64,000 nt of DNA from Ruditapes philippinarum (taxonomy: Eukaryota). Shown in pieces: positions 5,981-64,000 of this stretch (the stretch's first letter is position 1; each line of letters opens with the position of its first letter). Location of the stretch: assembly GCF_026571515.1 (NCBI RefSeq), contig NW_026867118.1, forward strand, positions 124,001 to 188,000, read 5' to 3'. Both the position numbers and the translations under genes were made by a program. The notes beneath the pieces were generated by a model, which did not search any database, had not been told where the DNA came from, and saw nothing but the letters and a program-made list of their open reading frames with translations.

Positions 5981-6061
5981 AGCATTTGTGATGCAGTGGC
6001 ATATAGCAATTCACATGTGTTACACATGTGAATTGCTATATGCCACTGCATCGCAAATGCT
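5981..6061. repeat. 81-bp near-perfect palindrome (40-bp arms)
   Basis: AGCATTTGTGATGCAGTGGCATATAGCAATTCACATGTGT-T-ACACATGTGAATTGCTATATGCCACTGCATCGCAAATGCT, one mismatch. Confidence 0.95.
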
Positions 6062-17002: not shown

Positions 17003-17301
17003 CACAGACACTTGGGGTTTGGAGCTCAAAACGCCTTTAAAATCCAAATAAAATGCATATATGTCAATCCCAGCACATGTACTGATCATATATATCAAAA
17101 AAACTTAATATAAGCCGTTTTGAAAAAATTTCATATTTCAACATCTATAATTATTATAGATGTTGAAATATGAAATTTTTTCAAAACGGCTTATATTAAG
17201 TTTTTTTGATATATATGATCAGTACATGTGCTGGGATTGACAAATATGCATTTTATTTGGATTTTAAAGGCGTTTTGAGCTCCAAACCCCAAGTGTCTGT
17301 G
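17003..17301. repeat. 299-bp near-perfect palindrome (~149-bp arms, essentially no spacer)
   Basis: CACAGACACTTGGGG...CATCTATAA-TTA-TTATAGATG...CCCCAAGTGTCTGTG. I found a single mismatch between the arms. Confidence 0.95.
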
Positions 17302-43500: not shown

Positions 43501-44423
43501 TGTTGTACCATTCCACATGATTGTAGAATGCTTGTGAATTTGATTGTGTCAGGTTGAGTGGGGATATCCAGGTGGAAGTTCAGATCTCCTGTTATTATAA
43601 TGTTCTTATCAGTCACAGCAAATTGTGCTAGGAATTTTGCCCATTCTTCTAGAAATACACTAGTTTTTAATTCATTTCCTTTAGATGGGGGTGGTCGGTA
43701 AACAACAGCTAACCTCATTGAATAATTTTTGATTGTTATCTTGCAATCCAAATGTTCAAATGTTGAGTACTCACTATCATGAGTTGATGCTAGAACCTTA
43801 ACATTTATATTTGACTTATAAATCACGGCGACACCACCATAACCTCTCCCACCAGGGCGCGGGGCATGTTTTATCTGATACCCCTCTGGCAAAAGTTCAT
43901 TCAGACATACTTTGTCAACTGAAGTTCCAAGCCATGATTCGGTGATTGCAACCAAATCGAATTTGTAGGAAAGTATAAAATCACAAATGGCCAGAGTTTT
44001 ATTTTTAACTGATCTTGGGTTAATGCAACATACATTTAACTTTCTTTGGCCTTTAACTGCAGAAATAGGTTCGTACTGTATTGTGGTCAGTGTCTTAATT
44101 CTAATCTGATCATTGTCATTTTGTGGTATTGTATTATATCTATTTGTCAATTTTACTGTTGAAATTGCCTCTGGTAAGTATTGCAGGTTTGAAAAGTTTA
44201 CTCCATCATTGCTGTCCCATAATTATACATATATAAAATTTCACTTAAGTGTTGTTACATCCTTAATTACAACATACACTCAGGATCTTTAATATTTTAT
44301 AAACATTTCGATAGTTCGAGTGCGCGGAAACAAATTAGGAAAATCCGCCGAAGATAAATCAGTTTCGGTCAATATGATCACTTATAAATAAACTTGCTCT
44401 GTGTAAAAATACAAGTTAACGTT
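40573..44423 (-). mobile_element. Near-intact L2/CR1-group non-LTR retrotransposon with a single EN+RT ORF
   Basis: ORF 44150-41130 (1006 codons) has APE endonuclease motifs (NPRS, LVAITESWL, GDLNFH, HTLDVV, DH) and RT motifs (QSAYR, LDLSAAFDT, VPQGSVLGP, YADD). The 3' UTR ends in an L2-type stem-loop (GCGCC...GGCGC) and a (TAA)n tail at 40573-40600. Candidate TSD AAGAATAA at 40565-40572 and 44424-44431. Confidence 0.92.
41130..44150 (-). CDS. LINE ORF2: APE endonuclease plus reverse transcriptase
   Basis: Uninterrupted reading frame with complete EN and RT motif sets (see the element entry). The frame stays open to ~44223 but has no in-frame ATG before the EN domain. Confidence 0.9.
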   Translation of the reverse strand: MTNRYNTIPQNDNDQIRIKTLTTIQYEPISAVKGQRKLNVCCINPRSVKNKTLAICDFILSYKFDLVAITESWLGTSVDKVCLNELLPEGYQIKHAPRPGGRGYGGVAVIYKSNINVKVLASTHDSEYSTFEHLDCKITIKNYSMRLAVVYRPPPSKGNELKTSVFLEEWAKFLAQFAVTDKNIIITGDLNFHLDIPTQPDTIKFTSILQSCGMVQHVREPTHVLGHTLDVVITRDTDILISNIKVVDPGLSDNKSGKVTKDHYAIIFNTIAEKPPPIRKSVTYRKLNSIDIDSFKSDIESSTLLHLEHTDLEQLVGEYTNVLSTLLEKHAPIQTKTIVLRPSCAWYTQELHDAKHMRRKLERNWQSSKLTIDHEIYRNQCAKVNKMLVEAKVKHYSDKVTSCGRDQKQLFQITNNLMNGPTETSLPTNIETDKLPQEFSDFFVEKIETIRDEIKSKLVLNPGDVETEQMGVENSLTRFEKASKEEIKKIINSSSNKSCELDPIPTWLLKSCLDELLPFLSNIINISLSTGNVPAEFKRSYVKPLLKKPTLDQNILKNYRPVSNLSFVSKTLERVVSSRIDEHVTTNQFQEKYQSAYRKFHSTETALIKVQNDVLKSLDHGNVTILVMLDLSAAFDTIDHKTLVQRLENVFGIAEKPLEWITSYLKDRKQTVYINGVLSKPVTLNFSVPQGSVLGPKFYTMYTKPLGAICKDHGLQYHLYADDSQLYLSFKPLDDISKEETLQRIQACLRDIISWMNENMLKLNTDKTEVIMFSSPYNSKHIEDLSITVGDSKINKSVNVRNLGAIFDSNMNMEDHINSVCRSCYDQLRQIGRIRKYLTIDASKQLVTSLVISRLDYCNALLYGVPQTLINKLQIVQNTAARIISRTSRYDHITPVLKELHWLPVQYRIQFKILTHTYKALNGKSPEYMEEMLCVYKPRRNLRSQNKALTLVVPTSKTVTFGDRRFEYAAPKLWNDLPSGVRDSSSLCSFKRALKTHYFKQAYILS

Positions 44424-45193: not shown

Positions 45194-48100
45194 ATGAAAA
45201 TGGATTTATTCTTTTTATCTGTCCTGGTCACCGTATTTCAAGGTAAATATGTTCATTTGTTTTTCCTTCGTCTATTTTTTCGTTTAAGAATTAGAATTAT
45301 CATAGTTTTAGTTTTAGTTTTATCATACATAAGTTAACAAAATATAATGTTTAATCATCGAAATATTGATAAACTATATGGCTTCAAGAACAAGCTATGA
45401 TTGTATATTCGGACTTAGTAAAGACATAGGACTTTTACGACGTAATACTGAATTTTTTATGCTTAAATATGATTATAAAAATGGGTGAGGGATTAACGAA
45501 TAAAGTTTTTTTACATCAACATATCCATATCAACGTTTGTTTTTTTCTTTTAAAGAACTTTGAACTTCATTCGAACACGTGGGTGCATGTGATTTATGTT
45601 TTTTCCTTTGCGTCTTAATTTTTATGTTTGAATGTCTCCAACAATGACTTTCTTTATAAGATGACAAGTCAGTTTTAATATAAAACTTCCTTTTACAATG
45701 GGTCGTTCGTGACCAAGTGAGTAAGGTCGTTGGTCTTAATGCTGTTCTTCCCAACTCGCCAGTGTATGTGGATTCTTTTATGTGACCAAGCTATCCAGTA
45801 AGGTTGTCCTACTCAGGTGCTCGTTTGTGTCTCAAATAATGCACAAAAGGGCACCGAGGTCTTCCTCTACCAGTAAAGCTGTAAAGTCACCATATATGAC
45901 CTCAAATGCGATGTAAAACCCGATAAAAATGTCAAACATTGATACACAGAAAATATCTAAAGCATAATACACGTCATGTATCTGTACGTAAAAAGCCACT
46001 GCAGTTAAGACAATTGTATTTCCATGCCATTTCAGCTTCATGGTCCTTCTTTGTTTCAAAATCAACACTGCAATGGTCAAGGAATAGAGATGGATGCGAG
46101 ATAGCAACACCAACCATACAATATGGCCAGAAAGACCTTACCGTTGATATGAATGGACAAGCTATAGAACAAGAAGTCTGGGTCGGTTACTATCAACAAA
46201 CTGCCTTGTTTGAGTACATAGGTAAATTCAAGTAATTTTGTTTGAAATAACAAATATCTATGTACAATGTATAATTCTAAGCAATATTCGATATGAAATT
46301 ATACTTTTTTAACGTCATGGGTTCTTATGAAAATATGGGTCTTTTGATTTTGATAGCAATGTATATTCATAATTTTCCCTTCAATGTCAGGTATTTATGC
46401 CAACAAAGCCATACATTGTCCCGTCTATCGGCAATCTGTATAATGAAATTATAATAACGCAAATTGTTATTGACGACTAGTACATAAGAAAACCAAGCAG
46501 TTTTAGACTGTTTTCAAAGAACGGTGGGAAAATGTCGCACGAAAGTAAGATGACGTCAGCCGTTCAACGGCTACGTGAACGCGTGTAAAGTCATCATACA
46601 ATGCTGAAACGCATTAGAAAAATAGCCGGTCATATATGTAATATATATGTAAGATATTCTAATTTAATAGCTTAGAAATGAATAATTATCATGTTGTTTT
46701 TATCTAGGGTGCATGAGTTCAGATGACTTAGATATACAAATACCTAAAATACAACTCGGTGAACGGAATATCGGACGGTGCTACTCTGCTTGTTCCCACT
46801 CGCCTTTTATCGGGATACAGAAGAGTAAGGTAGAGCATTGTTTTAACGATAATCTTCATTCAATTTAGAATTTTTCTACAGCATTAAGACATTAGTTTTA
46901 CAAGTATGAATGTTAACAAGAGCCACCGCCTTTCTAAATTCAAAACATCGGAGGAAAAATATTGTAGCAAAGAATTCTTCAAGACAACATCATTTGGTTT
47001 GCAAAAAAGTATAATTACAATTAAAATTTCATACTTGACATTGACAGTCAATGTCATTTACACATTAAGGTTATACCTAAATTATTCATCATAGTGGTAT
47101 TGTTATAAGCGTTGTTTTGTCAAAATATGAATCAAACCTATCCATATAATTACTATTAAAGTTATGATATAAACATTTGAACAAGTCGGTCAAGGTCAGT
47201 TTAGTTTTAAGGTTAAACTTGAATTAAACAACATGTTCAGTTTTAATTTCAACAATAAGCTTTGTTTTGCCCAAGTATAAATTCAATCTATAAAAACATA
47301 TTTTGATTTCTATAACATTTGCAAACATTTGCATTAAGAAAAATATTTTCACCTTCGTGATCAAGATCATTTTAAGGTCAAGGCCCTGTTTGATTTATAC
47401 AATACATCTATTGTGTCAAATATGGCGTATATAGTTTATATTTTATTCGTAAATGAATTACAGTCATGTCAATTTAAACTAGATTAAATAATTTGGCCTT
47501 GATGGTCAAGGTCATTTAAAGCTTAAGGGCATATTTGAATAATTCAATATATCGGTTTGGTCATAGTGTTCTTCTGTCAAAGTATGAATCAAAGCTGTAT
47601 GACACTTTAGCATATTTCAACAATTTTACACTCGAGGTCATTTTTTATGATCAAGGGGAGACTATTTTATGATAATATAGACAAATGTGCCTAAAGCCAT
47701 TGGTCGGGTCTTGACAGCTGACCCCGAGTTTTAAACGTTTTTATCTTTTGTGAATGTGTTTATTTCAAATGCCTTCTGAAAGTAAAGAGGGCAGTGGTCT
47801 GCTTTATTGTGTTATCTCTAATGTTTTGTATATGCTTTTAGAATGTACATAACATGACTATGGTGCTTTGATATGTGAATACTAGAAGGTTCCTTGGTTT
47901 AACTAGCTGTAAATGAGTATCAATAGTCGGCTTATCAAAAACTATGTCTGTTAAAATACTCTTCTTTATAAAATATCTGTTACTAGGATATTTTATGAAT
48001 AGTGTCTAGATAAACTTTTTTTCGGCAGATTAGCAACGGTTATAATATATAAAGACCACAATGTTAAAATTATGTGACATAAATTGTATGCCTCTTGAAG

Positions 48101-51100
48101 AACCCTTTTAGAACAAGGAAGATGAACTATGATTTTTGTTTTACGGGTGGAGGAAAACCCCAGGGGCCTGTCTGAAGATACTTTCAGGCACGAACGGGTA
48201 CCTTAGTAGAACCACCGTAGTAACTTTACATGGGTATATTTAAAAGCTCTACAGCTTGCTTTACTTCTGTTTTTATCATGAAATGAAAGACACTGGGACC
48301 AACACATACGGGAAGCAACTGCCTAGTTGTTAATTTGTTAAAACAGATATTTTTTTGTTCTAGCCCCACTGAGGACATAACCATGTTGATGACACATGTA
48401 CTAGTAAGTTCTAGAAAGTAAGCCCGAAAGTAGTTTGTTTAAGATATCGGGTTTTATCTCAATGGGGCTTAGATAGATATTTTAACGTAGATTCAAACGA
48501 ATCAAAATCTATCATACAACTCCTTCCCGCTAAAATGACATTTGATTTGAAGTTTGTAGACTTTATTCTGATATCTACATGTACTAGCAAATCTGACAAT
48601 AATGTTTTATGGTTATCTATAGAAAACATTGGCCCTCCCAAATTTTGTAGAATAAAGGGGGTCTAGAAATTGACACCGTCCGTCTGTACGTTCGTCCGTC
48701 TGTCAAACTGTATGTCTGTCCGTCACATTTTCGTGGCCGGTCCATAACTGTTTCATCCATCAAGGGATTTTGATTATACTTTGCACAAATGTTCACAATA
48801 ATGAGACAATGTGACATTCGCCTAATCAACTACCTCCAAGGTCAATGTCGCATGTAGAGGTCAAAGCTTAACATGGTCTGTTATAGGGTAAATTTTGTGT
48901 CCGTTTCATAACTTTTTCATAGAGCAAGGGATTTTGAAATTACTTAGCACAAATGTTAACAATAATAAGACGATGTGTCATGCGCAACATCCGGACCCCT
49001 AACTCAAATGTCAAGCGCACACGGAGAGATTAAAGCTGCACATGGTTTATAATAGGGTATTTTTGTGTCCTATCAATATTGTTTTATCGACCAAGGGATT
49101 TTAAAATTACTTGGCACAAATGTTCACAATAATCGGACGACGTGTCACGCATAACAACCGGAATCCTACCTTCATGGTCAAGGTCATACTTAGGGATCAT
49201 CTTAACATTGTTAGTTAATATAGGGTATATTTTGTGTCAGGTCAATCTTTTTTTCCCCCAGTAATTAATAGATTTTAAAATACCTCGGCACAAATGTTTA
49301 CAATAATTACGGACCCGACACGAAACATACCCTGTAATAGACCAAACCCTGTTTTGATTTTCTATTTGTTACATTTTATGGCTTTGAAATAGTGATAACA
49401 ACTATATATACAAACGAAATTTGTTGAAACATACACAGGATTTATTTCATTCTATATCTTTAATGAATTTATTGTTGCATGTGCAGAGTAGCATTGATAA
49501 AGAGTTTGCTCTGAAAGTTCGGATCCATATCTCATTCTTTTGAAATAGCACAATTTTGTACTGCATGTAAAAAGGGGACGTAGGTCACTCTGTTACAAAT
49601 GCTTGTTTACAGTGTTATTGCATACCAGACATACCAAAGAAAAACATAAGACAACTTGGCTGCAATTATTGGTGTACTGACAGGTATAATGCTGCTTGTG
49701 GAGGACACACTTTCATTTCAGTGTACAGAATGTTATCTCACAACGGTACGTAAAGGATTACGTTTTGCCTTATGCTTTAACAAAATTCATTTTAACTTAA
49801 TTAGAACTTCAAACCACTTGCCCTTCACCGCTCTTGGATTGTATTGCGCCACGGTCTTTAGAGGAAGCTATCAAGATAGTTAAAGGTACATCTGTGGTTG
49901 TACTTAGGTGCCCGTTCGTGACTGAAATAATGCACGGAGGGTTTTCTACCACTAGTTAAGATGGAAAGACGTCATATGACCTATTCTGCGTGTGCTTTCA
50001 TCTAGTAAAATATAGTAAAGTTAACAAGCAAAGTAATTTAAGTCTATTGTTGATTGACTGTTTAGTCATGTTTTGTATCCGGGAAAAGTGATGGAGGAAG
50101 ATATCAGGTACCCCTTCATGACTCTCTTACGAGCGGACAACCAATCGCATTCTTTCGACCATATTCGTCAAACTTCGGATAAGAGCCTCAAACACAATAG
50201 TAAGAATACTGTATTTCGGTTTTACCTACGCTACACTGTCGGGTACTTGAAACGGTGCAGATTTTCCGTGATACGGTGCTTCCATCCAAGATCGAGGAAG
50301 GTAAACAACAAGAAGGTTCATATATATCATATGTCATATCATATGTAACATACATTGTGAACTTATTGATCTTATTGTTACATTACATGCAACTATTCTT
50401 CTTTTACAATATAAAACGGATTTGTCTAAATACATAGAAATAAAATGACACGTGCATTCTTGTTGTATACCTTCCTCCATCATGGATTGAAGCACCCTAT
50501 CACGGAAAATCTGCACCGTTTCAGGTACCCGACAATGCTCTAAGGAACTTAACATGTAAACCAATAGTAATTTATTGCTAGGAGTTAAATTTATTCCAAT
50601 ATATCGGGTAAAAGTCCAGCAAAAATAAGAAATTTAAAGGTATGAAAGTAAACAGTATATTATGTACAAACTTATTCTAATGGTTGTAGAAACGGAAAGT
50701 ATTAAATATATACATGTCGACATTAATTCAGATTAAGATACAATTGTACATCGGTGGGCATTTTCTAAATTGATTATGATTGTGATTGTCAGACATATTT
50801 TCAATCATAATTTTACCGAAATAGACTATATTTTCCTTTGGATTTCAAATATATATATACATTCGCTACACATCACCAACTATTACACCTCTGTTTTTGT
50901 TTACATATAAAAACCACGTAGTAAAACTACTTTCAATCCGTAATAATTCCGGGGTTATTATGAATAATAGCCGAGATGTACCGATTGGTGGACACATAAG
51001 CAGCACAATCGACCTTCCGGAAGCAAACAAGATAGCTTCCTCGCATGAAATAATATAAGTCTCTGGAGGGAGTCGAACCCACTAAGGCAAGGGACAAGTT

Positions 51101-54100
51101 GTTCTGTCAACAATTTGACATCTCTGCTGATGGCTTGAATAGAGACTGACAAAAAAGTTTTATTTTTGAAATTTAGATTGTCATTCATATAGATGTATAC
51201 ATGCAACTTCAACTTCATGTTTATGTCCTTATCGGTAGACTCTAGACATATTCCTGAAAAACAAGAGTACAAAAAAAGATGTCTCAGATTAGATATCGAC
51301 CAAACAGGAAATAAAACATATCAATGGAGACTTTGTTCCGACGAAATGTGGGTATTTTGTACGTCTGGTGAGTTTTGTTTATATTATAGCTATGATATTT
51401 TCCAGGTATATATGACTTACTGCACAATTTTAATATCATCTCAGCATTTAATAACGTTTAACTTAATAAACTTTAAAAGGCAATCTGATGTACGTAAATG
51501 GTTACAAAAGGAGCGACATGTTATAAGGGGAAAATTACAGCATGTATGTAAAGCTTTAACCCAACCTGCGTAAATGACCACGGGCGCAGCAATTTCTAAA
51601 CATCTTTATATAACGGATTTATAATACAGCAAGATAAATTTATTTAAGGGGAAACGAAAATAATTCACTTTATAAATTATCAACAACCGTGTATATAGTT
51701 AATACAAGTTTGCGTCATTAAAAAATTAGAATGAGAGGTCTTTTTCATCTTGATTGCTCAAATGTCGAGAAAAAAGGAATTGAAAGGTTGAATTGCATTT
51801 GCGAACAATTGCGGCTATTTCTGTCAGTCTCCGAATAAGTTCTTATAAGGAATAATCAAGTTAAAGGAGTAGCAAGTACACGGTTTACACAGCCATATAA
51901 CAGTGCTTGGTGTTATTGTAGCAATAAAGTGTTTACTGTGCATGGAAACAAGAAATAGTAAAACGATATTCAGAAAACAATTATCAATTTATACAGATGA
52001 AAAGATAAAAAACGGAATGAACCACTGTCCGTAGCGTAATGTAACATAAAAGATATTTCCCACCTGTTCTTTTACCGATTTTTTCTCCTCGATGTTATTT
52101 TGTCTTTTGAGTAGTATCGTGTTCTAGTCCGGTTGCAGCCGACAACTGTGGAGTGGATCTTTTGTTTTGGGTTTTACGTCACATCGACACAGTATAGGTC
52201 ATATCGCAGCGTTCCAGCTTTACTGGTGGACGAAGACCTCAGGCGCCCTTCCGTGCATTATTTCAGGCACGAACGGGCACCTGAGTAGAACCACCGACGT
52301 TCCGTAAGCTAGCTGAAAGAATCCAAAGTCCCTGTTGGGATTCGAACCAACAGCGATGAGGGGCAAGTGGTTTGAAGTCAACGACCTTAACCACTCGGCC
52401 ACGGACGCCCCATGGAGTGTATCTGATAACATCTCCAATAACCATCACGATTATCCAGTGAAAAGCGACGATAAAAACGTTCACTATTATAAAATGTTTT
52501 GACCCTGTTTACATGTACTGCTGCATTGTACGGATATGTTGAATGTCAGATGTACTGTTAAAATAGTAATGTTGTAAAAAACTTTATGTGTTTTTTTTAG
52601 ATTTTAACCAATCAGTCAAAATTTGTTATAAAAAAAAAAGTTGGAGGAATGCAGCGTCACTGTGTTTTCAAACACATGGTTATCCGATTGGATATGAAAA
52701 CGTACGGAATGTGATTTTCGTGGCCAAATACGGCTGGGCAGGGATCGTGTGGAGCGATGTAATTTTCAACGATAATGGTATTTTTTTCCATAAAATAATG
52801 TTTTCAGAAGATTGGAACGATTTTTGTAAACAACTACGTAAAACAAGAAAAAAGTTTCAAAATCCGAATTCCACACTGAAAAGCTCTAAATCATTTTGGT
52901 TTAGATTTCTGGATAAAAGAGTCTCCCAAAATCAAATACATGCAATTAAAGGTTTTCTTATATTATTAATACGTTTATGCGTAAATAACTAATACATGAA
53001 TACATTCATGTGTAAATCACCAATGACCAATTAAGAAAACGCATTTGTTGATTTTTTATCTGTTTATTATCAGTAGTTACTTCTTTTACTTGAAAGAGAA
53101 ATTAAATATAATCTAAATTATGCGATTCAGCAATTTGATTTTGTTTACTCATTTTAGATTTAGAAAACTCGAAAACTTTGTTGGACATCAGTTATGGGTA
53201 TTTGAAATATGTTAGTCCTTACGGATATGTTTTACATTTTTCAAAAGAAGACACAGGAAAATATATTCTCTGCAATGGTAAGATTATTTTATTTATATTT
53301 ATAAGTGTATTATTCGATTAGGTCAATTACAAAATATGTACAGGGCAAATTTTAATCATGCAATTGTAATGCGATCTTTCATTATGAAAACAAAAACAAA
53401 AGCAAAACAAACATAAAACCGAAAGAGAACTTGCAAATAATTTAGCGAACACTTTCATGCCGGTAAATGCAGTTTATTATAGTGCAAATAAACTTCTCGA
53501 TTTTTCATTGGTCGAAACGTCCTTTTTATCATCATTGAATCTACGATTTATCAATTCAAGAGACCCTTTTGTCTCCTTACTTAAATAGCAAATAGCGGAC
53601 ATTCGTTGTTTCAATTTTTAAATCACCGTATCTTTTTGTCAGTCATTTTGCGATAATTACAAGTTTGATGATTGTTGCTCACTTTAAACATACTTTGTAA
53701 CAAAAAAAAAAACACTTATTTTTGTACACGTACGATTATATATAATCACGAGGATGCACGATTTCGTTGATTTTGACATGCTTAAACATCTCTATTCAAA
53801 ACCTTTCTAACGTTATTAACACGAGCCATCAGCTTAAAACAGTTTTAAACTACAAGAAATCGCAGTTTTAATAGAGTAAGTCGATGACTATTGTTGTAAA
53901 AATAAAATGGTCTGGAAACGGTTTGAGAATACATGTATTGGAGAAATAAGAGCTTAAGTAATGGTTCGCACAAAACTCCGTTATTCAGTAAAGCACATTT
54001 TTACTGATTTGGTGGAGGTAAATGTGTGTAATAAGGTATGAATGGGGAACAAAAATTCTGACTGGCACAACGGACCATGAGTTCCAAGAAGGTCATTTAT

Positions 54101-57100
54101 TGAATATTCTTCTCCCGGGAAGGCAAACGTGTTTCATGTCGGTATTACCGAGATTTAACGCTATAAAAGGTCATGAAATATTGTCAGAAACTACGCCATG
54201 TCGAGATTTAGGTATATTCGTCTATTTCATGATAACACCCCATCGCATACATCTAAGATTGTGAAGTCAATTTTGTAGTTTGAGAAAATTACCCCTTTAC
54301 CACACCAGCCATACTCTCAAGATCTAACCCCAAAAGACTCAAAAAGTTCTTATCATGTCGTCGACACAAGCCCCGACAGACCCTCAGTTAACTCATCAAT
54401 CAATGCCTCAGAGGTTTACCTAAATCAGCGTACAGTGACACATTTCATAAAAGGATTCAGAGCTATAAATTATGCACATTGTATCATAAACTGCGGATAT
54501 TTTTTTTTGAAAAAATGTCATTTTCATTCGGCAATTTTGGTCGCATGCTTTTTGAATAATATACAGCACATATTTAATATTTCATTATTATTGAAAATCA
54601 TTAAAATTCGTTAACGAGCATCACTTGAGAAATTCCTCTCAACAGGAATCATTGGAAATAACAATAATTGAGTTTTTAACAATTGATAAAATGAACTTGT
54701 TAAGATTTGAGCTTTGTTATGTATTACTGTACACCTAGCTCAGTTAATTATCAAGACAACTGGCGATGCTAACTATATAAACAACCGGAATTGTATTTCT
54801 ATAAACGATCAAAACTATATATTTCTGTTCATAAAACAGAAATGATTTTTTGGCTACTAAGTCTTTTCTTCATGTAACCGGTGCGTCAATAAAACGTTTC
54901 TTTGGTTCAGTGGTTTTAAGCATTGTATAACTTTGCATGTAAACTTTATTATTGCAGTCTCTTGTTCCGTTTCTTGTCAAATATGTTTAACGTCTTTTCA
55001 CAGATACATCCGTGAGAACAGAAACAACAAAATTGACAACTATCGCTCGTGATACTTCGAGTACAAAACGTACGCATGTAACCTGTGTGTGATTTATGCA
55101 TATATCTGTTCCGAGAAATTAATTTTAAATTTGATTATTAATCAATAATAATTTTAGGAAATTTAAGAAACTTATTAATTTCAAGCAATTATTATAATCT
55201 CATTTATAGATATCAATCTAACTTACGGAAAAAGTAATATTTATTAACAGTTATAAAACAGTAAAACAAGCTAAATTGTTTCATTATAAACAACCGCAAT
55301 GGTATTTGTATTCACAACATGATTGGTTTTGTATATATAACCCAAATGTGTTTTTGTCTGAATTATCAAAACGATATCTATTCATATGACAGGAATGTTT
55401 TTGTAACTAATAAAGTCTTTCCTTCATGTAATCAGTGCGTCAGTAAATCGTTCATTTGGCTCAGTGGTTTAGAGCGCTTCATTAGATTGCGTTTAATTTT
55501 CATTGTACTAGTCTTGAGTTTCGTTTTAAGCCAATAATGTTCAACATCTTTTCACAGATACGCCTGTAGAAAAAGAAACAACACAATTGACAACTATCAC
55601 AAGTGATGATAACTCTTCGCCTACAAAACATACTCATATAACCAGTATATGATTTATGCATTTATCCGTTATTATTATTTAAGAAAGTTATAATAATTGA
55701 TATATTTTGAAGATTAAATAACCTTATTGATTTCAAGCAATCATTATAACCTCATTTAACGGGATCGACCTATCTAACAGAGTAAGAAAATATTATAACA
55801 GGTATTTAACAGTATATCAATTGTTCTGTGATAGGCATTGTCATTAATATAATATTTTGTGCAAGTATATGACTGTATTAATACTGATGTTCGGATATAT
55901 ACCATGTCTAAACTTATTGGTGTTTACAATGATTACAGCAACGACAACAGAACGACTTTCATCAACATCTTGGTCAAACACACCAAATACACACGTCTGT
56001 TTCGTTGGCTGACGAGATAAGAAAGTCACACAATGACTCATCAACCAAAGGTAAAGGACAAATCAAAATCGATTTAGTGCCTTTGTTTCATTTTCACAAT
56101 GGTTCATGTGAGTGTGTAAAAGCATTCTCAGTGACTTGGATTGATATTTTAATAAGCAAGAATCAAATATTAGCAATACAAAAGAGAGAAAGAAAAAAAT
56201 GGGGTGTGTAAAATTTTGAGCTGATCAAGTGGTGGTTGAGTATAAGAAAGAAGCCATTGTAAATGTGTAAACACTTACAAACCTAAATTCATTCTACATG
56301 TATTACTGAATCTTTTTCTTTAGCAGTATTTCTTGGTTTACAGGCATTACTTGCCTTTCTAGCGTCGATCTTTAGCGTTATTATTAACTTAAATCTCTAT
56401 GAATAAAGACCGATACATGTTTATTTTCAGATACTGACATACCTGTCATTGTAGGCGTATCAGTTTCAGCTATCCTGGTTGTCGTTATAATTGTGATCAT
56501 TCTGATCCTAGTCAAACGGTATGTTTCCTCATTTGAAAGGAATTTAGATACTATAAGCCTCCTTAGATGTTTTCATAGTGCAACGTAACTTACTTCTTGG
56601 TGAAGTTTACAAAAATATCAATGTTTCTTTTCCAAAACAGGATTGAAGTAAATCTTTTTCACAAGTATGTGTTGATATTTATGTATTTATGAAATATGCT
56701 TTATTTTATTTATCTGCTTTAGCATTTAAATAAAGTAATTCTAATTGGTTTTACATTTGTGATTTATTCTTCTTTTCTGCTGATACATTTTTATAGGAAG
56801 AAAATACGTTGTTGTACTGAAGGAAAGCAGTTAACTGAGGTGGCTGATCAAAAAAATTCAAAGACTAAAAATCCTATTTCACACGTAAACAATTCTTACG
56901 AGCTTGTTGATGCTGAATATATAGATACAGCTATCAAAACAACATCTGATTTGTGTGATGGCACTTACAACATGCCCGAACAAGAAGCAGATGAAGTAAA
57001 CACAAACGTAACAACATACGACATCGCTGGTACCGACAGACAAACATTAAAACAGGAACACGACAATATATATAATAAACTGCAATCTGAAAGCAGTCCC

Positions 57101-57319
57101 ATATATGATCACACCAATGATAAATCTAAAACTGGAATTCAAGCGTCTGATGATACATACAACACAACGAAAGATATATCAGCGAATTCTGGATTTAAAC
57201 TTGGCGGCAATCATGCAGTTGGTATGAATACCATTGAAGAAAGCCCTTACAATCACACTAACTCTGATCCGTTTGAACAAAAACAAGTAGACAATGTCTA
57301 CAACACTGCTAGCTTTTAG
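45194..57319 (+). CDS. Uncharacterised type I membrane receptor, paralogue 1: signal peptide, split C-type-lectin-like domain with nested WSC domain, second lectin-like domain, Thr-rich stalk, TM helix, Tyr-rich tail (~564 aa)
   Basis: Exons 45194-45242 (MKMDLFFLSVLVTVFQ, signal peptide), 46036-46221, 46708-46829, 49613-49745, 51239-51367, 52601-52777, 53158-53277, 55004-55084 (or 55069), 55558-55644, [55939-56050, frameshifted], 56431-56518 (IPVIVGVSVSAILVVVIIVIILILVKR, TM), 56797-57319. In frame when the bracketed exon is skipped. WSC signature YIGC...C...C...FIG.Q...CYC...C...C...CGG...SVY. Confidence 0.82.
48657..49320 (+). mobile_element. Degenerate HINE-like element with an internal tandem array
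   Basis: (GTCC/GTCT)n microsatellite followed by about four repeats containing CAAGGGATTTT...TACTTGGCACAAATGTT. Confidence 0.65.
50237..50534. mobile_element. Foldback MITE with ~78-bp imperfect inverted arms
   Basis: TGTCGGGTACTTGAAACGGTGCAGATTTTCCGTGATA... (50237-50314) mirrors ...TATCACGGAAAATCTGCACCGTTTCAGGTACCCGACA (50457-50534). Confidence 0.75.
52161..52412 (-). mobile_element. Essentially full-length tRNA-derived SINE (Meta-core-like)
   Basis: Box A TGGCCGAGTGG, box B GGTTCGAATCC, core GGTGGTTCTACTCAGGTGCCCGTTCGTGCCTGAAATAATGCACGG, and a 12-bp TSD TGGAGTG(G/T)ATCT. Degenerate copies lie at ~7400-7590, 12240-12500, 25660-25935, 45700-45920, 48140-48220, 49810-49990 and 50960-51130. 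Confidence 0.88.
54265..54510 (+). pseudogene. Decayed mariner transposase C-terminal fragment
   Basis: Translates to EKITPLPHQPYSQDLTPKD (compare the mariner HPPYSPDLAP.D motif), then after a frameshift LKKFLSCRR...QCLRGLPKSAYSDTF.KRIQ, with a stop. Confidence 0.7.
54780..55810 (+). repeat. ~550-bp tandem duplication, each copy carrying a Thr-rich exon
   Basis: 54780-55260 aligns with 55330-55810 (AAGTCTTT.CTTCATGTAA.C.GTGCGTCA..., TCTTTTCACAG|ATAC..., TTTCAAGCAAT). Confidence 0.85.
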
Positions 57320-58739
57320 TAAAATGTTGAAAGGCAGGAACACGCACAATTCAATTTATAAGCTGATACAGAAGATTGATGAAATATAGTACAAACTGTA
57401 TATTGTTATGCATTATTATATTTGTTATAAGACATTACGGAAAGTTATGTTGACATATATTTTATCTTTTGTAAAGCAAATTCCTTCTACGGTTATGAAG
57501 CCGCTCTAACACTATTAGTATATCGAGGAATGTTCGTAGAAAATATTCTTTATTCTGCATGACCTCTGTGTGGCATTGATTGCAAAAACGTTTTGAGCAG
57601 GTGCTCTAATGAACGCTGTAAATGATGAATGACCATTTTGTTTTGGTTTTCTCTGATCTTCTATGACCTGTATTGACATTCTCAAATAAATGTTTTTAGG
57701 AGGAACTCATAAAATAAAAATAGAGTCTATTGTCTTTTATGTGATAGGCTTATTTTTAAAACGGGATAGTAAATATAATAATCAATTAAGATTGATCGTA
57801 CAGATTCAACAGATGTATTTACTAATTCCTTTACAAAGCTATGGACTATTCAATTGTGCTAATTAAGAAATACAAATCTGCAACGTGCTCAAGATGAGGT
57901 ATTTTCAACACTCGCCTCCCGACGTCTGTCCGTTCGGGCTTGAGGGATATTATGGGATGAATATCCTTGTTCATTATGTACAGCCTTGTGGGGGTAAAAG
58001 TTTGCTGATGAGGTGAAAATATGTTGCTTATTGGGTTTCAGAGATCAAGGAAATAAGCCCATAATGGGAACTGAAGGAGAACATCCGTCCTTCCACACTT
58101 CTTTTGTAAACAACACCCCCTTAACCATTTGGTTAATAATACAAAAAACTTTGTAGGTTTTATTGTTAAAGTTAACGTTTGTGCTTATTTAATTATGAAA
58201 GGAAATATGCTATTACACATCAAACGTCTATTCCGGTAGAATTGCTTAATTTGTTTAATATTTTTTTATAAAGGAAGTAAAGGGTAAAAGAAGTTAAATC
58301 AATAAGTCAAGAATTATATTTTGTTTCTCAACCTTGAAAGTAAAGTGTTCATCACTTATATAAATATATAATATATTTTAATGTAAATACTACATGTAAG
58401 TACAAGGATTGTCCTAAAAGATCGCATAAAGTTCCGTAATGACAATTTTACATTTCTGAGGAAACATTTGTATTTACTATTGGAAGTCTCACGGCAAATT
58501 GTACGAAAAGTAGTATATGTCATTCAATCAAAATTTTGAAAAAATACACTAATACGTTCTTACAGCATACACAATTAACTAAACCAGATACAAAGAAAAG
58601 ATAATCAAACATGACGTGGTTTGACGATAACGACAAGCGCAACATAACGAAGTTATGTGCATCTCTTTAAATATTGTCAAATTTTTTTAATGTATCAATC
58701 AAAATGATAATCAAAACAGATTTGAATATCTAGTACGGT

Positions 58740-59760
58740 TTACAAAAGACACGGGTTTGTGATAAAAACCACAGGCGAAACACCACGTGCACAACAAAAT
58801 TCCTGTAGAGTTTCATGACCCTAGTTAAAATACTTTTGAGCTATGTGTGACACAAGTTGGAGATTACAAACGTTTAGTAAGTCAAGGGCAAAACATTTGA
58901 CAAAACAAAATAAATCCACAAGTTAAACCCTAGGTGCATAGACTGAGCAACATTCCTGTAAAGTTTCATGACCCTAGGTCGAATAAGTTTTGAGCTACAT
59001 GCGACGCAAATTGAAATTTGCAAATTTTTACTTTGTCAAGGGCAATAACTCTGACAAAATACTTAACTCTACAAAAACTAAATAAATCCACACGAACATA
59101 CCCGGGTGCACATCTCAATCTAATTAAAATCAGCTTTAAATAACGCTCCGCTTTTAGATCTAACAGTGACCAAATACAAAGTCATTTCTGGTAACCTTTA
59201 ACACAGCCATTCATCGGCGAGCTTTCATAATTTTGAAAGCGATGCAGTTTCTAATTTTAACCCTGGGAAAGACAATACTGAATAGGTTATTTTCACGATT
59301 TCAAGAACAAACATGGCGTTGTCATCAAGTTAACTGGCAAAAATAAAATCTTTGCTCATTAAAAATTGACTCTATTTTTTCAAGTTAATTTGTTAAAAAT
59401 TACTTCAAACATTTTTTTTTCAACAAAAATCAACAATTTGTTAAATTTCCACGGATAACCGAATTTTGATAATTCGTCTACTGGCTATCTGTCAAAACCG
59501 ATTTGATTGCATTGCTAAAAATAGCTTTCTCGGGAAATCCGAATTATAAAGAAGGCGAACCATATTCGGTCGTCATTAGATGCACAGGAAATAAATAAGT
59601 AGATCTGAACTTTAGTCACATTGGTGCACAACTACACATGCTGGGCAACATCCATGTAATGGTTCATGACTCTAGGTCAAATACTTTTTGAGCTACGTGC
59701 GACACAAAATGAGAACGGATGGACGGACAGACGGACAAGGGTCAATCTAAATGCCCCCTT
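58740..59760 (-). mobile_element. HINE-like element interrupted by a ~510-bp insertion
   Basis: Repeated GTTTCATGACCCTAGGTC units, (GGAC)n at 59716-59738 and an ATGCCCCC end. The insertion 59113-59622 is flanked by GGTGCACA. Confidence 0.6.
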
Positions 59761-59998
59761 ATAGTGAGAGCACACAAATCGTCTTCCGTATATCAGTGTG
59801 TAATGACGGGAAATGACTAACGTCCGGCTAAGTTTGTGAATTAAGCAATAAGTGTTACTAAAGACATATACTACATACATGTATATCCTATAGTTCGTGC
59901 ACAGCTACACGTACTTACCATTAAATTTCCTTATGTATGCACCAAGTTTGAATAATTTCATTTTCGGAAAAGACTCTTATAGAAGAATAAAAGCATAC

Positions 59999-62900
59999 AT
60001 GTGGAGAATGAAACTGGATATACTCATTCTTTGTACTATAGAGATCATATTTCAAGGTAAACTTCTTTATTATTTGTTGTATGTTGTTTTGTCATATAAA
60101 TAACTTATAATTGATACTTAAATTAAATATATTATAATTGGTACTTAAATAATGTTTTAATAAAGACTTTGAAACGTTAATTTCTAATAACAGAGTTAGT
60201 TTAAGTTGAACCCATATAACCCGGATGGCTTCCGACATAAGAATTTATTCTGTTTAAACCTGTTTAAAGTTGGTATCCCGGTTACATAAATTTTCTGTAA
60301 TAAAATAACACATGAACCATAGGTATGATATTTAACTAAAATGGAAGGGATGGGGAATGTACAGTTTACAAATTTGGAAAGTTTTTCTTTTGTGTCAACA
60401 TGTCGATATTGCTATTGATAATTTTGAAAGAACCGTGTTGGAATTTCTTTTATCGCGTGAATCAATCTGCAAATTGTCTTTGCAATTTAAGTTTATGATG
60501 AAATATCTTAAAATAATATATGATAAACATAATCAACAGGGAAAGGCGGCGTTCAATGAACGCAACCCCCGCATGACTCTTCTTTTACAAGTTGACAAAT
60601 TGAATGACGCTTAACAAATGTCAAGTATTTGTTAAAACAATTGTCAGAGGACCACCAACAGAATAAGGTTATTCAATTGAATTAAAAATATCCTTTGAGT
60701 AATTTCATGTTTGTTTTAGAGTCATGGTGTTATTATGTTTCGAATACAACATTTACATTGACAAAGAAGAGCAATAATTGTGAGATAGCTACACCTGCTG
60801 TACAATACGGTAACCAAAAGCTTACAGTTGATATGAATGGACATTCTATAAAGAAAGAGGTCTGGGTTTGTTACTATCAACAAACTGCTTTGTTTGAGTA
60901 TATTGGTAAATTTTACGTTTTTATTGTTAAAATAAACAATTTTCTATGGAGCTTAAAAATCTGAAACTACATTTTACCTATGCGGGAAAGGTGGTATTAT
61001 GCTTTGTAAAACATGACCCAAACATATATTTATAATTTTCTTAGACTTTCGAGTTGTTCAGAAAAAATATGTTAAACTTGATGGGGAATCGGACGATAAA
61101 GTGGATTGCCTCCGAAATTTTATTCATAACCAAATGTAAAATTTTTATTATTTATATAATGTTTGTTTTCTGAAGTATGCAAGAAAACATGTTTTCTCTA
61201 TTTCAAATGTGCCGGTCACAACTGATATATGAATGCCTATGTTGTTGTTACATATAGGTTGCATGAGTTCGGAGGACTTACAAATACCCAAAATTCAACT
61301 CGGTACACCGAATATTGGACGATGTTATTCTGCTTGTTCCAACACGCCTTTTATCGGGATTCAGAGGAAAGAGGTATAGCATGATCGTTCACCTTATAAG
61401 CTTTAGCTGAGAGAACAGATGATACAGAGGTCTTTTCCACTGTAGATGTTTTGAATATGTTAATACCGTAACTATGACAACGGAATATGATGGCTCTTTT
61501 TACCGTGGCATATTTTATTAATAAGGAAATAAGTAGGAAATTGGAAATATGACATGTTAATTTTAAATAATAAATATTTTAACAGATCTTGTAAATTTTG
61601 ATGAGTATATATGAAAGCTGTTTAGATTTTGTTATTATACTGAGGGTTTTGAAATATTTAATCACTTATGAATTTATATACATTAACATGAAGTAAATCT
61701 ATTCTCTGTCTTTATAGTGTAAGCTATTTGGCTTCATCCTTTAATCACAATAAGATTTAGAAAGAAATATTAACTTTATATTTTAAACAAATCAAAATGT
61801 TCTCAGCAATATAGGCTAAACAATAACCATAAACCAGTTTTTAAAACAGACGGGTTGAAATATATTATGTTAAACTTAAGGTGGAACCCAACTAATAAAT
61901 ACCCCCGCTTTGAAGAGTATTCAATAGGCTTACTATAGTAATCAATTTTAACTGAGTGGCGTGGTTCCCCAGAGAGGGCAAAATTTGTTCTTTTTTCTTT
62001 TAACATTATTAAATTAATGGATCACTCAGATCCATTTTGGAAAGAATAAAGTGTTTAATTCAATTTATATAATAATTAAAGGTGTTAATTGGCTAAATAA
62101 TGCTTTATTTATTGACAGATATGGTACCTGATATTTTCAAGTCAAATGAAATATTAAATACTCGATAAAAGTACATTGAACCTACATACTTTTGAGAAAA
62201 TTAAGGGAAACTTTGATAATCCCCATATTTTGGTTATTTTTGAATTTGAATTAGGCTCTCTAAAAGAAAAATGGCTAAACAAGTGTATAAAGTGATGAGG
62301 TAGTGTAACATTTGTATACATATTTCAAATATTTTGAGCAAAATCAATTAATTTGCTCGGTAAAAGTACATTGAAAATTAAGGGAAACTTTGATTATCCC
62401 CATATTTTGGTTATTTTTGAATTTGAATTAGGCTCTCTAAGAGAAAAATGGCTAAACAAGTGTATAAAGTGATGAGGTAGTGTAACATTTGTATACATAT
62501 TTCAAATATTTTGAGAAAAATCAATTATTTTAATGTTAATTAAATGTTATTATTTGTTACTAAACACTGATCAGTAGGAAAATATTTTTCGTAAGGATGT
62601 TATTATAGATTCTTAAACTGAAAATTAACCCTTCTTATATCTAAAAAGTGCCCTTAACTAGTAATTCGTAGGTATATTTTGATTACATTTTGCACACCGG
62701 CGTTCTTTGTTGACTGTTTGGCAGTTCCTTATAGTGCCAATAACAAGGGTCATACAACAAGAAGTTTTGTTTTGTTTTTTGTTTTGCCTGCAGGATGCAA
62801 GCTGAATAATCATCGTCCGAACCCTCTTCCCCATGAAATAGCTTTTTTGTTTTAATTAAATTATTGCATCTATTATGTACTGAATTTTCTACCACATTCT

Positions 62901-64000
62901 AATATGTAAACTCTGGGACACATTGTTATTTACAGTGCTACTGCATATCAGACAAACCAGTTATAAGTAGTATCAGAAATCCAAACTGCAATGCTGGATG
63001 TTCTGTTTTTTATAACGCTGCTTGTGGCGGAGACAAGGTCATTTCACTGTACAGAATGCTACCTCACAACGGTAAATACAACATTTTTTATATTTCATAC
63101 ATACCATTCATGTTTTAAATGTTATTTATATACAAATGTATTTTTATAGATCTATAATTGTAAAAGTTTAGACAAGTGACACAAATAATTTAAGCTATCA
63201 TCATACACTAACAATAAATTTAGATTACATAATTTGTGCCAAAATACACAAAAAGTAGACATTTCTACGGAAGTAAATGGTTAATACATAGCGATAAAAA
63301 TAATATGATATTATAATTTACATATATTAAGTAAAGTTATACGGACAGCAAATTAGAATATATATTGATTTATAACATATGAAACATTTGCTGAGGAATT
63401 ATTTTTTGATCACATTGAGGCGTTGAAATTTAAGTATATTTATCATTATTTTCGGAAGAATCTAAACATATTCCTGCTGCAAAACAGGACAACAAAACTT
63501 GTCTCAAAATAGGTATCGACAAAAGTAAAGGAAACAAAACGTATGAATGGAAATATTGTTCCGAACAAATGCCGGCACTTTGCACATCTGGTGAGTGTTT
63601 ACTAATTACAGAGTTTTTACTGCAGTATGCTTTATATGAAAGCCGTTCAATGTATAAAACTGTACAAAGAAAATAAATATAATAAATAAACATAAATGTT
63701 TATCCATGTTAAATTTCACAAATGCATCTTTATTACTACAATATACACATTTAGAATTCTTACTTTTTCATTCGAATTAATGAGATTTCGTTATATGTTT
63801 TGGGATAACTCGTTTATATTACAATATATAATGCTCACAGTTGCTGCAAAGCCGAATCAATCGAGTTATTGTGGGAATATGAATAATGTTTTCTATAATA
63901 TATATAGCTAGCAAATATTTCACATTTCTTCTTTCCTGCTTTTGTAAGATTCAGACCGATCAGTACAAATAAATATGAAACAGAAAAGCTGGATGAATGC
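59999..64000 (+). CDS. Tandem paralogue 2 of the WSC/lectin-like receptor (partial, runs off the window end)
   Basis: Exons 59999-60056, 60720-60905, 61258-61373, 62936-63071, 63459-63590, 63949->64000. Same exon order and phases as paralogue 1, with shared peptides (CEIATP, LTVDMNG, YYQQTALFEYIGCMSS, NIGRCYSACS, YNAACGG, YRML.HN). Confidence 0.85.
62166..62528. repeat. ~180-bp direct duplication
   Basis: AAATTAAGGGAAACTTTGAT...ATTTCAAATATTTTGAG occurs at ~62198 and ~62375. Confidence 0.9.

What the first reader, a model, noticed from the sequence alone, without database searches (positions are those of the whole stretch)
45194..64000. Tandem array of lectin/WSC receptor genes: candidate lineage-specific glycan-sensing receptor family
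Seen: at least two adjacent same-strand paralogues with matching exon order and phases. Paralogue 1 is complete: signal peptide, lectin/WSC, second degenerate lectin-like domain, Thr-rich stalk, TM, signalling-type tail. Known: bivalves expand pattern-recognition receptor families by tandem duplication. Inference: an undescribed immune or particle-recognition receptor cluster that probably continues beyond the window.
Basis: partly seen in the sequence, partly recalled or inferred. Interest (0 to 1): 0.7.

Follow-up and report, generated by a model that had tools for sequence, protein, structure and literature searches.

The report
Clam receptors with interlocked lectin-like domains
Two neighbouring Manila clam genes belong to an uncharacterised family of cell-surface receptors whose two lectin-like domains lack the usual sugar-binding site and appear to fold interlocked around an inserted WSC domain, an unusual design whose ligand and role remain untested.

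Summary
There are two same-strand paralogues (Ruditapes philippinarum LOC132734900 and LOC132734904) with identical intron phases, 59% protein identity and dS about 0.5. A third copy lies on a contig of the same length, outside the window.

Corrections:
(1) Paralogue 1 is not cleanly complete. Stalk exon 10 has a 4-nt excess and a stop, and the RefSeq protein ends there without a transmembrane helix. The membrane form needs that exon skipped.
(2) Both lectin-like domains lack EPN/QPD and WND, so glycan sensing is unsupported except possibly through WSC.
(3) The family is far older than these copies: 33 five-module relatives plus one double, mostly 20-35% identical.

New here: the WSC domain sits inside the long loop of a split C-type-lectin-like domain. 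The AlphaFold model (ectodomain pLDDT about 92) pairs the exon-2 half with the exon-7 half in 46 of 46 lectin-fold matches. That implies a circularly permuted inner domain from exons 5-6. Cys37 and Cys304 are lost together in relatives, as this crossed topology predicts. A truncated model can also close uncrossed, so the crossing is likely, not proven. Tails are rich in tyrosine motifs. Ligand and immune role are untested.

The parts
45194..45242 (+). P1 exon 1: ATG and signal peptide (LOC132734900)
   Evidence: P0001 match
46036..46221 (+). P1 exon 2: N-half of lectin-like domain 1 (beta1, alpha1 with Cys37, WVGY = WIGL-type beta2), running straight into WSC strand 1
46708..46829 (+). P1 exon 3: WSC domain, first part
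49613..49745 (+). P1 exon 4: WSC domain, second part with CGG motif
51239..51367 (+). P1 exon 5: C-half of lectin-like domain 1 (Cys178, Cys196, Cys204); first half of the inferred inner permuted domain
52601..52777 (+). P1 exon 6: N-half of lectin-like domain 2 (Cys228); second half of the inferred inner permuted domain
53158..53277 (+). P1 exon 7: C-half of lectin-like domain 2 (Cys304, no C2-C3 pair); pairs with exon 2 in the model
55004..55069 (+). P1 exon 8: Thr-rich stalk (end as in RefSeq X2; an alternative in-frame donor follows 55084)
55558..55644 (+). P1 exon 9: Thr-rich stalk, a local duplicate of exon 8 (54776-55269 vs 55332-55820, 71.5%)
55939..56050 (+). P1 exon 10: stalk exon with a 4-nt excess near the AC run 55989-55994 and a premature TGA at 56010-56012
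56431..56518 (+). P1 exon 11: transmembrane helix (24 of 28 residues identical to LOC132752592)
56797..57319 (+). P1 exon 12: 173-aa cytoplasmic tail with 9 Tyr, stop TAG (163 of 173 identical to LOC132752592)
60008..60056 (+). P2 exon 1: signal peptide (LOC132734904)
60720..60905 (+). P2 exon 2: N-half of lectin-like domain 1
61258..61373 (+). P2 exon 3: WSC, first part
62936..63071 (+). P2 exon 4: WSC, second part
63459..63590 (+). P2 exon 5: C-half of lectin-like domain 1 (open frame, purine-rich acceptor; absent from RefSeq model P0004)
63949..64000 (+). P2 exon 6, start only: N-half of lectin-like domain 2, cut by the window end

Best explanation
A recent tandem expansion, in the Manila clam, of an older molluscan family of single-pass receptors. 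Layout: signal peptide, lectin-like N-half 1, WSC, C-half 1, N-half 2, C-half 2, Ser/Thr stalk, TM, tyrosine-motif tail. SHOWN by sequence and model: the WSC domain occupies the long loop where a C-type lectin binds Ca2+ and sugar, and neither lectin-like unit keeps that site. STRONGLY INFERRED (about 0.7): the two lectin-like domains fold crossed. N-half 1 and C-half 2 form an outer, membrane-proximal domain (Cys37-Cys304). C-half 1 and N-half 2 form an inner, circularly permuted domain (Cys204-Cys228, Cys178-Cys196). The result is one rigid three-domain head. INFERRED: the head binds a macromolecular ligand without Ca2+, more likely a protein or complex surface than a simple sugar. Clustering then leads to phosphorylation of the tail tyrosines and recruitment of SH2-type partners, in recognition of non-self or of other cells. 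Skippable phase-1 exons, duplication and exon exchange between copies vary the head. In this assembly P1 yields a secreted head when exon 10 is included and a membrane receptor when it is skipped.
For: Nesting: the family profile matches C-type lectin N-halves at positions 13-82, WSC at 75-166 and C-halves at 161-209; relative P0110 has Lectin_C 16-82 (profile 3-70 of 107) followed by WSC 90-144. Model of P0001 on 56 sequences: pTM 0.77, 10-residue blocks 79-97 over residues 21-300, five models within 79.3-81.3; long strands 64-82 and 250-263; hairpin 200-206/212-219. VIA-align: WSC to yeast Wsc1 Z 11.0-11.1; all 46 lectin-fold rows of the 50 shown span model 1-20 to 306-315 with 87-109 residues aligned, best Z 8.5, rmsd 3.7. 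Cysteines in 39 near-complete ectodomains: C178, C196, C204 and C228 in 39 of 39; C37 in 36 of 39; C304 in 35 of 39. Two of the three proteins without C37 have Phe at 304; the third has Ala at the motif position and a Cys six residues later. Relatives P0095, P0066 and P0060 keep N-half 1, WSC and C-half 2 while lacking or degrading the middle (P0095 and P0060 read by eye). 36 of 48 relatives covering exons 2-5 have a TM; in 33 tails YxxPhi occurs 145 times against 48 +/- 6 in shuffles (0 of 200 reach it), ITAM-like pairs in 11 of 33 and ITIM-like motifs in 15 of 33. dN/dS between P1 and P2 is 0.49.
Against: The N1-WSC-C1 protein P0002 also closes into an uncrossed nested domain (46 lectin-fold rows spanning 8-18 to 204-214, best Z 9.0), though only one of five models was confident (84 against 69-71.5) and helix alpha1 was lost. 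Cys co-loss rests on at most two independent lineages, and AlphaFold saw the same sequences. Some relatives or isoforms lack only C-half 2 (P0007, P0019) or only N-half 2 (P0047, P0051, P0055), which fits neither topology neatly. Lectin-fold Z-scores of 7-8.5 lie near the tool's stated background. The window's own tail has only 2 YxxPhi motifs and no ITAM or ITIM. No data on ligand, tissue or challenge response.
Confidence: 0.5

Rival explanations
1. Ligand rival: a glycan-sensing pattern-recognition receptor, with the WSC domain binding beta-glucan or a similar polysaccharide and the lectin-like domains as scaffold.
For: WSC domains occur in a fungal beta-glucan-binding lectin and a glucanase (PMC9024836 passages). 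Yeast aromatic cluster 1 (Y22, Y24, Y107) maps to F75, Y77, Y157, aromatic in 46 of 51, 49 of 52 and 56 of 56 family members. A 'WSC domain-containing protein 2' is among gill-specific mussel transcripts (PMC4581086 passage; identity with this family not tested).
Against: Cluster 2 keeps 1 of 3 aromatic positions and cluster 3 almost none. The same paper says the Wsc1 surface lacks an apparent pocket and that Kremen1 WSC binds a protein. The cluster-1 residues lie next to the lectin-like junction and may be structural.
Confidence: 0.3
2. Topology rival: an uncrossed nested domain (N1-WSC-C1, Cys37-Cys204) followed by an ordinary degenerate second lectin-like domain (Cys228-Cys304); the crossing is a modelling artefact of tandem homologous domains.
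For: The truncated protein P0002 folds this way in its best model. Crossed states of tandem domains are known as misfolds (PMC4660218 passages).
Against: 46 of 46 lectin-fold rows span exon 2 to exon 7 in the full model. C37 is lost without C204 in 6 of 6 testable proteins, and clear C304 loss occurs only with C37 loss while C228 stays. The C204-to-beta1 link is a short hairpin.
Confidence: 0.3
3. Role rival: a non-immune receptor for adhesion, development, gamete recognition, mucus particle sorting or mechanosensing.
For: The WSC + Ser/Thr stalk + TM layout recalls yeast Wsc1 mechanosensors, and Kremen1 uses WSC in Wnt signalling. Overall dN/dS is below 1.
Against: Copy-number growth, 60-85% identity between neighbours and exon mosaicism are more typical of recognition families (general knowledge). 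ITAM- and ITIM-like motifs are enriched across the family.
Confidence: 0.3
4. Status of P1: the exon-10 frameshift is an assembly error, or a null allele of a decaying copy, rather than a source of a functional secreted form.
For: The excess lies at a dinucleotide run. If exon 10 is spliced on to the TM exon, the stop lies about 126 nt before the last junction (from coordinates), which by the usual rule (recalled) invites nonsense-mediated decay.
Against: RefSeq ends the protein at this stop under an ordinary name. An AATAAA lies at 56402, before the TM exon. TM and tail exons are intact, and the sister locus has an isoform skipping the stalk exon (P0009).
Confidence: 0.4

Closest known systems
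Bivalve CTLD-containing proteins with WSC domains (PMC10140915, passages and section 2.1 read)
   Same: C-type-lectin-like and WSC domains in one bivalve protein; expanded repertoires.
   Different: The paper names the combination in one sentence, and the passages read describe no nesting, crossing or tail. The P1 protein gives no Pfam Lectin_C hit and only 6 of 49 relatives do at E up to 0.05, so Pfam-based surveys would miss most members.
[quoted passage not shown]
   Same: Two lectin-like domains joined at their long-loop poles by swapping; EPN/QPD and WND lost; protein ligands.
   Different: Snaclecs are secreted heterodimers of two chains that swap only the loop. Here one chain appears to exchange the whole beta3-beta5 half, carries a WSC domain in one loop and is membrane-anchored.
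Strand-swapped tandem-domain states with a circularly permuted central domain and a terminal domain (titin I27; PMC4660218, passages)
   Same: Exactly the inferred wiring: central domain from the C-part of domain 1 and N-part of domain 2, terminal domain from the outer segments.
   Different: There it is a misfold of Ig domains that evolution is argued to suppress. Here it would be the native, disulfide-locked state of lectin-like domains.
Yeast Wsc1 sensors and human Kremen1 (PDB 7pz2, 5fws; PMC9024836, passages and section 3.3)
   Same: WSC fold with 8 Cys and CGG motif (Z 11.0 and 9.0); single-pass protein with Ser/Thr stalk.
   Different: Their WSC is not embedded in a lectin-like domain. 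P1 shows no other Pfam domain, so no kringle or CUB (Kremen layout recalled).
Non-sugar-binding CTLD receptors (CD72, LLT1, CLEC5A, Ly49) and the mannose-receptor family
   Same: Best lectin-fold matches (Z 7.6-8.5); CD94-type domains have lost carbohydrate binding (PMC2792708 passage); tyrosine-based signalling (recalled).
   Different: Those are type II single-domain receptors or linear arrays of self-contained domains; sequence identity is only 7-19%; no orthology.

Membership tests
WSC domain (PF01822) | Pfam score above the gathering cut-off | tested here: met
   P0001 29.4 bits vs 27.8; P2 protein 24.7, below the cut-off
WSC domain (PF01822) | Eight cysteines and the CGG motif | tested here: met
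   C80, 103, 107, 120, 122, 136, 140, 148 and CGG, aligned to 7pz2
WSC domain (PF01822) | PAN/apple-type fold | tested here: met
   7pz2 Z 11.1, rmsd 2.4, 86 aligned
C-type-lectin-like domain (fold) | beta1-alpha1-alpha2-beta2 / beta3-beta4-beta5 fold | tested here: met
   46 lectin-fold chains among the 50 rows shown, Z 6.8-8.5, about 90 residues aligned; Z is near background and alpha2 is not seen in N-half 1
C-type-lectin-like domain (fold) | WIGL-type motif on beta2 | tested here: met
   W65 in 47 of 49 and G67 in 46 of 49; WAGI/WTGI in N-half 2; the two N-halves are homologous (hhalign probability 89.9)
C-type-lectin-like domain (fold) | C1-C4 and C2-C3 disulfides within one contiguous domain | tested here: inconclusive
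   Six cysteines give two C1-C4 pairs and one C2-C3 pair; the pairing appears crossed; bonds not measured
Ca2+-dependent C-type lectin (sugar-binding CRD) | EPN/QPD motif in the long loop | tested here: not met
   Absent in P1 and P2; EPN or EPD occurs anywhere in the ectodomain in 3 of 56 aligned proteins, QPD in none; loop 1 is replaced by WSC
Ca2+-dependent C-type lectin (sugar-binding CRD) | WND motif on beta4 | tested here: not met
   W193 kept (47 of 55) but positions 194-195 vary freely; W-R-L in P1
Ca2+-dependent C-type lectin (sugar-binding CRD) | Ca2+-dependent sugar binding | not testable with these tools
   needs a binding assay
Snaclecs | Secreted heterodimer of two chains with loop-only swap | tested here: not met
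   single chain with TM and tail exons
Kremen / polycystin-1 type WSC receptors | Kringle-WSC-CUB, or LRR/PKD/REJ multi-pass layout (recalled) | tested here: not met
   Pfam finds only WSC in P0001; one TM
ITAM/ITIM immunoreceptors | Canonical ITAM or ITIM in the tail | tested here: not met
   None in the window's tail; present in 11 and 15 of 33 relatives' tails
Bivalve pattern-recognition receptors | Microbe binding and immune-tissue or challenge-induced expression | not testable with these tools

The most novel reading that the evidence does not exclude
A mollusc-wide, undescribed receptor family whose native ectodomain is an intramolecularly domain-swapped pair of C-type-lectin-like domains: an outer split domain and an inner circular permutant, locked by crossed disulfides, with a WSC domain grafted into the former sugar-binding loop. 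It would be a natural case in which a classic tandem-domain misfold became the functional state. It would act as a diversified recognition system with activating, inhibitory and soluble forms, varied by exon skipping and exon exchange between tandem copies.
Probability: 0.55. Interest if true: 0.72.

Novelty: new variant of a known kind. Interest (0 to 1): 0.55.

Why it matters
Expanded lectin-like receptor clusters are common in bivalves, so the cluster alone is modest news. The architecture is the interest. A whole domain replaces the sugar-binding loop, and the two lectin-like domains seem to be natively crossed, the arrangement described for titin as a misfold to be avoided. One disulfide-mapping experiment tests it. 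The family mostly escapes Pfam Lectin_C, so published counts of bivalve lectin-like receptors probably omit it. With tyrosine-motif tails and paired soluble and membrane forms, it is a concrete candidate for how a farmed clam couples extracellular recognition to signalling.

Tried and rejected
Pfam on 12 single exons found only a weak WSC hit; no Lectin_C hit for any R. philippinarum copy. Foldseek on the full model gave no match at E up to 0.001; best was Wsc1 at 0.0048, and lectin folds did not appear among the rows shown. The Atlas search with P0001 gave only leads under 0.9. The third homologue search added no named species beyond R. philippinarum, so the range rests on one Atlas cluster, which may be P0017's own. 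The cluster-member look-up could not be made, so the other three sequences in P0001's cluster, and whether any carries the TM, are unknown. Rejected: uncollapsed haplotypes for P1 and P2; a third copy within the window; a classical Ca2+-dependent lectin; orthology to Kremen, polycystin-1 or mannose receptors. hhalign did not relate the two C-halves (probability 10.7). Literature searches (listings only unless stated) found no description of this family, of a WSC inside a lectin-like domain, or of a permuted one. The library lacks most subscription journals. Only one supplementary file of PMC10140915 was held, with no WSC hit; its domain-architecture tables may list such proteins.
Full report
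OBSERVATION. Exon models sliced from the window give two same-strand genes with GT-AG introns and matching phases (1,1,0,1,1) over exons 1-5. P1 runs from ATG 45194 to TAG 57319. P2 starts 2,689 bp later at 60008 and is cut in exon 6. They share 121 of 204 aligned residues and 75% of exon nucleotides, with dS 0.52, dN 0.26 and dN/dS 0.49. Self-blastn pairs only their exons. They are therefore paralogues, not haplotypes. No third copy lies in the window.

IDENTITY. P1 exon 2 matches Ruditapes philippinarum LOC132734900 X2 at 100%, and P2 is LOC132734904. Named relatives are all from this clam and fall on three contig lengths: 213,736 bp (LOC132734900, 901, 904), 62,730 bp (LOC132752592, 593, 594) and 90,490 bp (LOC132751570, 571). 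That LOC132734901 shares the window's contig is inferred from the equal length and neighbouring locus number. Whether the other two contigs are alleles or separate clusters is unresolved; identities between copies run from 37 to 87% per exon group.

P1 IS BROKEN IN ITS STALK. Exon 10 is 112 nt and shifts frame, with TGA at 56010-56012. The sister protein P0010 aligns across it in two frames and implies 108 nt. RefSeq's P0001 stops there, at 380 aa with no TM. The TM and tail exons are intact, 24 of 28 and 163 of 173 identical to LOC132752592. Skipping exon 10 gives an open 564-aa receptor, and the sister locus has a stalk-skipping isoform (P0009). An AATAAA at 56402 could end a secreted form (inference). 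An assembly error is not excluded.

FAMILY. A profile of six clam copies found 176 proteins at E up to 0.001 and 67 at 1e-10 among 1.84 billion representatives; the best 150 were returned. Many of these match through WSC only. Of 155 proteins held, 48 cover exons 2-5, and 36 of those 48 have a TM; the other 12 are 380 aa or shorter. Module profiles find the order N1-WSC-C1-N2-C2 in 33 proteins and twice in tandem in P0013. Most are 20-35% identical to P1. The seven named clam proteins placed in the tree form one clade (support 0.99; 56 sequences, 280 columns, midpoint root). The library gives no names. One member matches an Atlas cluster of 60 'uncharacterized' proteins, all Mollusca, with no common Pfam family (score 0.97); this may be its own cluster and gives no species range.

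DOMAINS. WSC passes Pfam's cut-off in P1 and aligns to yeast Wsc1 by sequence and fold (Z 11.1, rmsd 2.4). The flanking exons are halves of C-type-lectin-like domains. The family profile matches lectin N-halves at 13-82, WSC at 75-166, C-halves at 161-209 and N-halves again at about 210-257 (individual E-values are weak). The WSC thus follows the WIGL-type strand and precedes the C2-C3 cysteines, the position of the long loop that carries EPN/QPD (PMC6468738 and PMC2792708, passages). EPN/QPD and WND are absent at their positions. Nesting holds in both structural models.

TOPOLOGY. AlphaFold2 on P0001 with 56 sequences gave pTM 0.77 and 79-97 pLDDT per 10-residue block over residues 21-300; the stalk is disordered. 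Against 48,161 chains, the 50 rows shown are 4 WSC chains and 46 lectin-fold chains. Every one of the 46 aligns from model residue 1-20 to 306-315 with 87-109 residues. A self-contained domain would give about 17-206 or 210-306. The simplest reading is that N-half 1 pairs with C-half 2, leaving C-half 1 and N-half 2 as a circular permutant joined by the hairpin 200-206/212-219. Cysteines agree. In 39 near-complete ectodomains (of 56 aligned; 17 dropped for over 20% gaps) C178, C196, C204 and C228 are invariant. C37 is missing in P0023, P0035 and P0042. C304 is Phe in P0035 and P0042, the motif position is Ala in P0023 with a Cys six residues later, and P0019 and P0148 lack the segment in the alignment. 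Including fragments, C204 is retained in 6 of 6 testable proteins that lost C37 (read by eye). These losses are at most two independent events. Against: I could not inspect coordinates, and the N1-WSC-C1 protein P0002 closes uncrossed in its best model (46 lectin-fold rows spanning 8-18 to 204-214), although four of five models scored only 69-71.5 and alpha1 was lost. Both states may be accessible, as is usual for domain swapping. I put the crossed native state at about 0.7.

TAIL. In 33 family tails of 40 aa or more, Tyr makes up 5.8% against Phe 1.6%. YxxPhi (145 vs 48 +/- 6), ITAM-like pairs (12 vs 0.8), ITIM-like motifs (23 vs 9.8) and YD[HT] (40 vs 3.9) each exceed all 200 shuffles; ITSM does not, and YxN is depleted. 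The tails are related, so these are not independent counts. The window's tail has 9 Tyr, 2 YxxPhi and no ITAM or ITIM. Phosphotyrosine signalling is inferred, not shown.

DIVERSIFICATION. Except between exons 3 and 4 and before the last exon, introns are phase 1, so most modules can be skipped in frame; annotated isoforms do so. LOC132751570 sides with LOC132734901 in exon 3 (8 of 9 informative sites) and with P1 in exon 5 (9 of 10); max-chi 11.4, reached by 58 of 5,000 permutations. This suggests exon exchange, on protein data only. dN/dS is 0.32 in WSC and 1.16 over 46 codons of the exon-5 region, a noisy hint of relaxed or positive selection.

MECHANISM. Most likely a Ca2+-independent recognition receptor: a rigid three-domain head on an O-glycosylated stalk, signalling by clustering and tail phosphorylation, with soluble forms as decoys or opsonins. 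Shown: gene structure, WSC, loss of the lectin site, nesting. Inferred: crossing, ligand class, signalling, immune role. A glycan ligand remains possible through WSC. Yeast aromatic cluster 1 is conserved but clusters 2 and 3 largely are not, and WSC domains bind either glucans or proteins (PMC9024836, passages and section 3.3).

COMPARISON AND NOVELTY. Lectin-like plus WSC proteins in bivalves are mentioned in one sentence of PMC10140915 (passages, section 2.1 and one supplement searched). It works like snaclecs in pairing sugar-blind domains by swapping, but is not one. The inferred wiring equals the central and terminal domain misfold of titin tandems (PMC4660218, passages). PMC514892 (passages) and PMC4581086 (one passage) add context only. 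Ten searches found no description of this family or topology, within a library that lacks most subscription journals.

VERDICT. A real cluster of an uncharacterised molluscan receptor family; a new variant of CTLD-containing type I receptors. Interest 0.55.

Noticed in passing
window 41130-44222 (-): Uninterrupted 1,030-codon frame with endonuclease (PF03372) and reverse transcriptase (PF00078) domains: a young-looking LINE about 1 kb upstream of P1.
   Followed up: partly
window 37629-39255 (-): A second, older LINE fragment with an RVT_1 hit, split over two frames.
   Followed up: partly
window about 6960-16250 (-): Exons with ankyrin repeats and a weak SOCS-box hit: an ASB-like gene.
   Followed up: partly
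window 26043-26324 (-) and 34211-34750 (+): A MORN-repeat exon and a weak PIH1 CS-domain exon in divergent orientation; possibly two ciliary genes (gene identity not tested).
   Followed up: no
window 54279-54420 (+): Short frame in P1 intron 7 resembling a mariner transposase C-terminal motif (recalled); no Pfam hit.
   Followed up: partly
window 17003-17301, 15084-15266, 5981-6061, 50234-50537: Long self-complementary stretches: 99% over 299 bp, 81%, 96% and 72%; the last lies in P1 intron 4.
   Followed up: no
window 7402-7583, 31430-31663, 45769-45938, 48140-48217, 49806-49991, 50993-51102, 52161-52400: A dispersed repeat of about 200 bp with several copies inside P1 introns, SINE- or MITE-like.
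   Followed up: no
window 60720-60905 and 63459-64000: P2 has Cys in place of the WIGL-type Gly, a second extra Cys on strand 1 and lacks the conserved Trp30. Its RefSeq model stops after exon 4 although exons 5 and 6 are open; the exon-5 acceptor is purine-rich.
   Followed up: partly
protein P0013 (unnamed relative, 838 aa): Carries the whole five-module cassette twice before the TM, so the cassette duplicates as one unit.
   Followed up: no
LOC132752592 (P0009, P0010) versus window 56431-57319: Its tail is 94% identical to P1's, but its ectodomain is 85-87% identical to LOC132734901 and about 60-75% to P1: possible head-tail exchange between copies.
   Followed up: partly
ESM Atlas cluster, 1,246 aa, WSC 93% and Lectin_C 11% of members: Second-best look-alike of a family member (0.87; Rotifera in the 3 members with a known phylum); a lead to a related architecture outside molluscs.
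   Followed up: no
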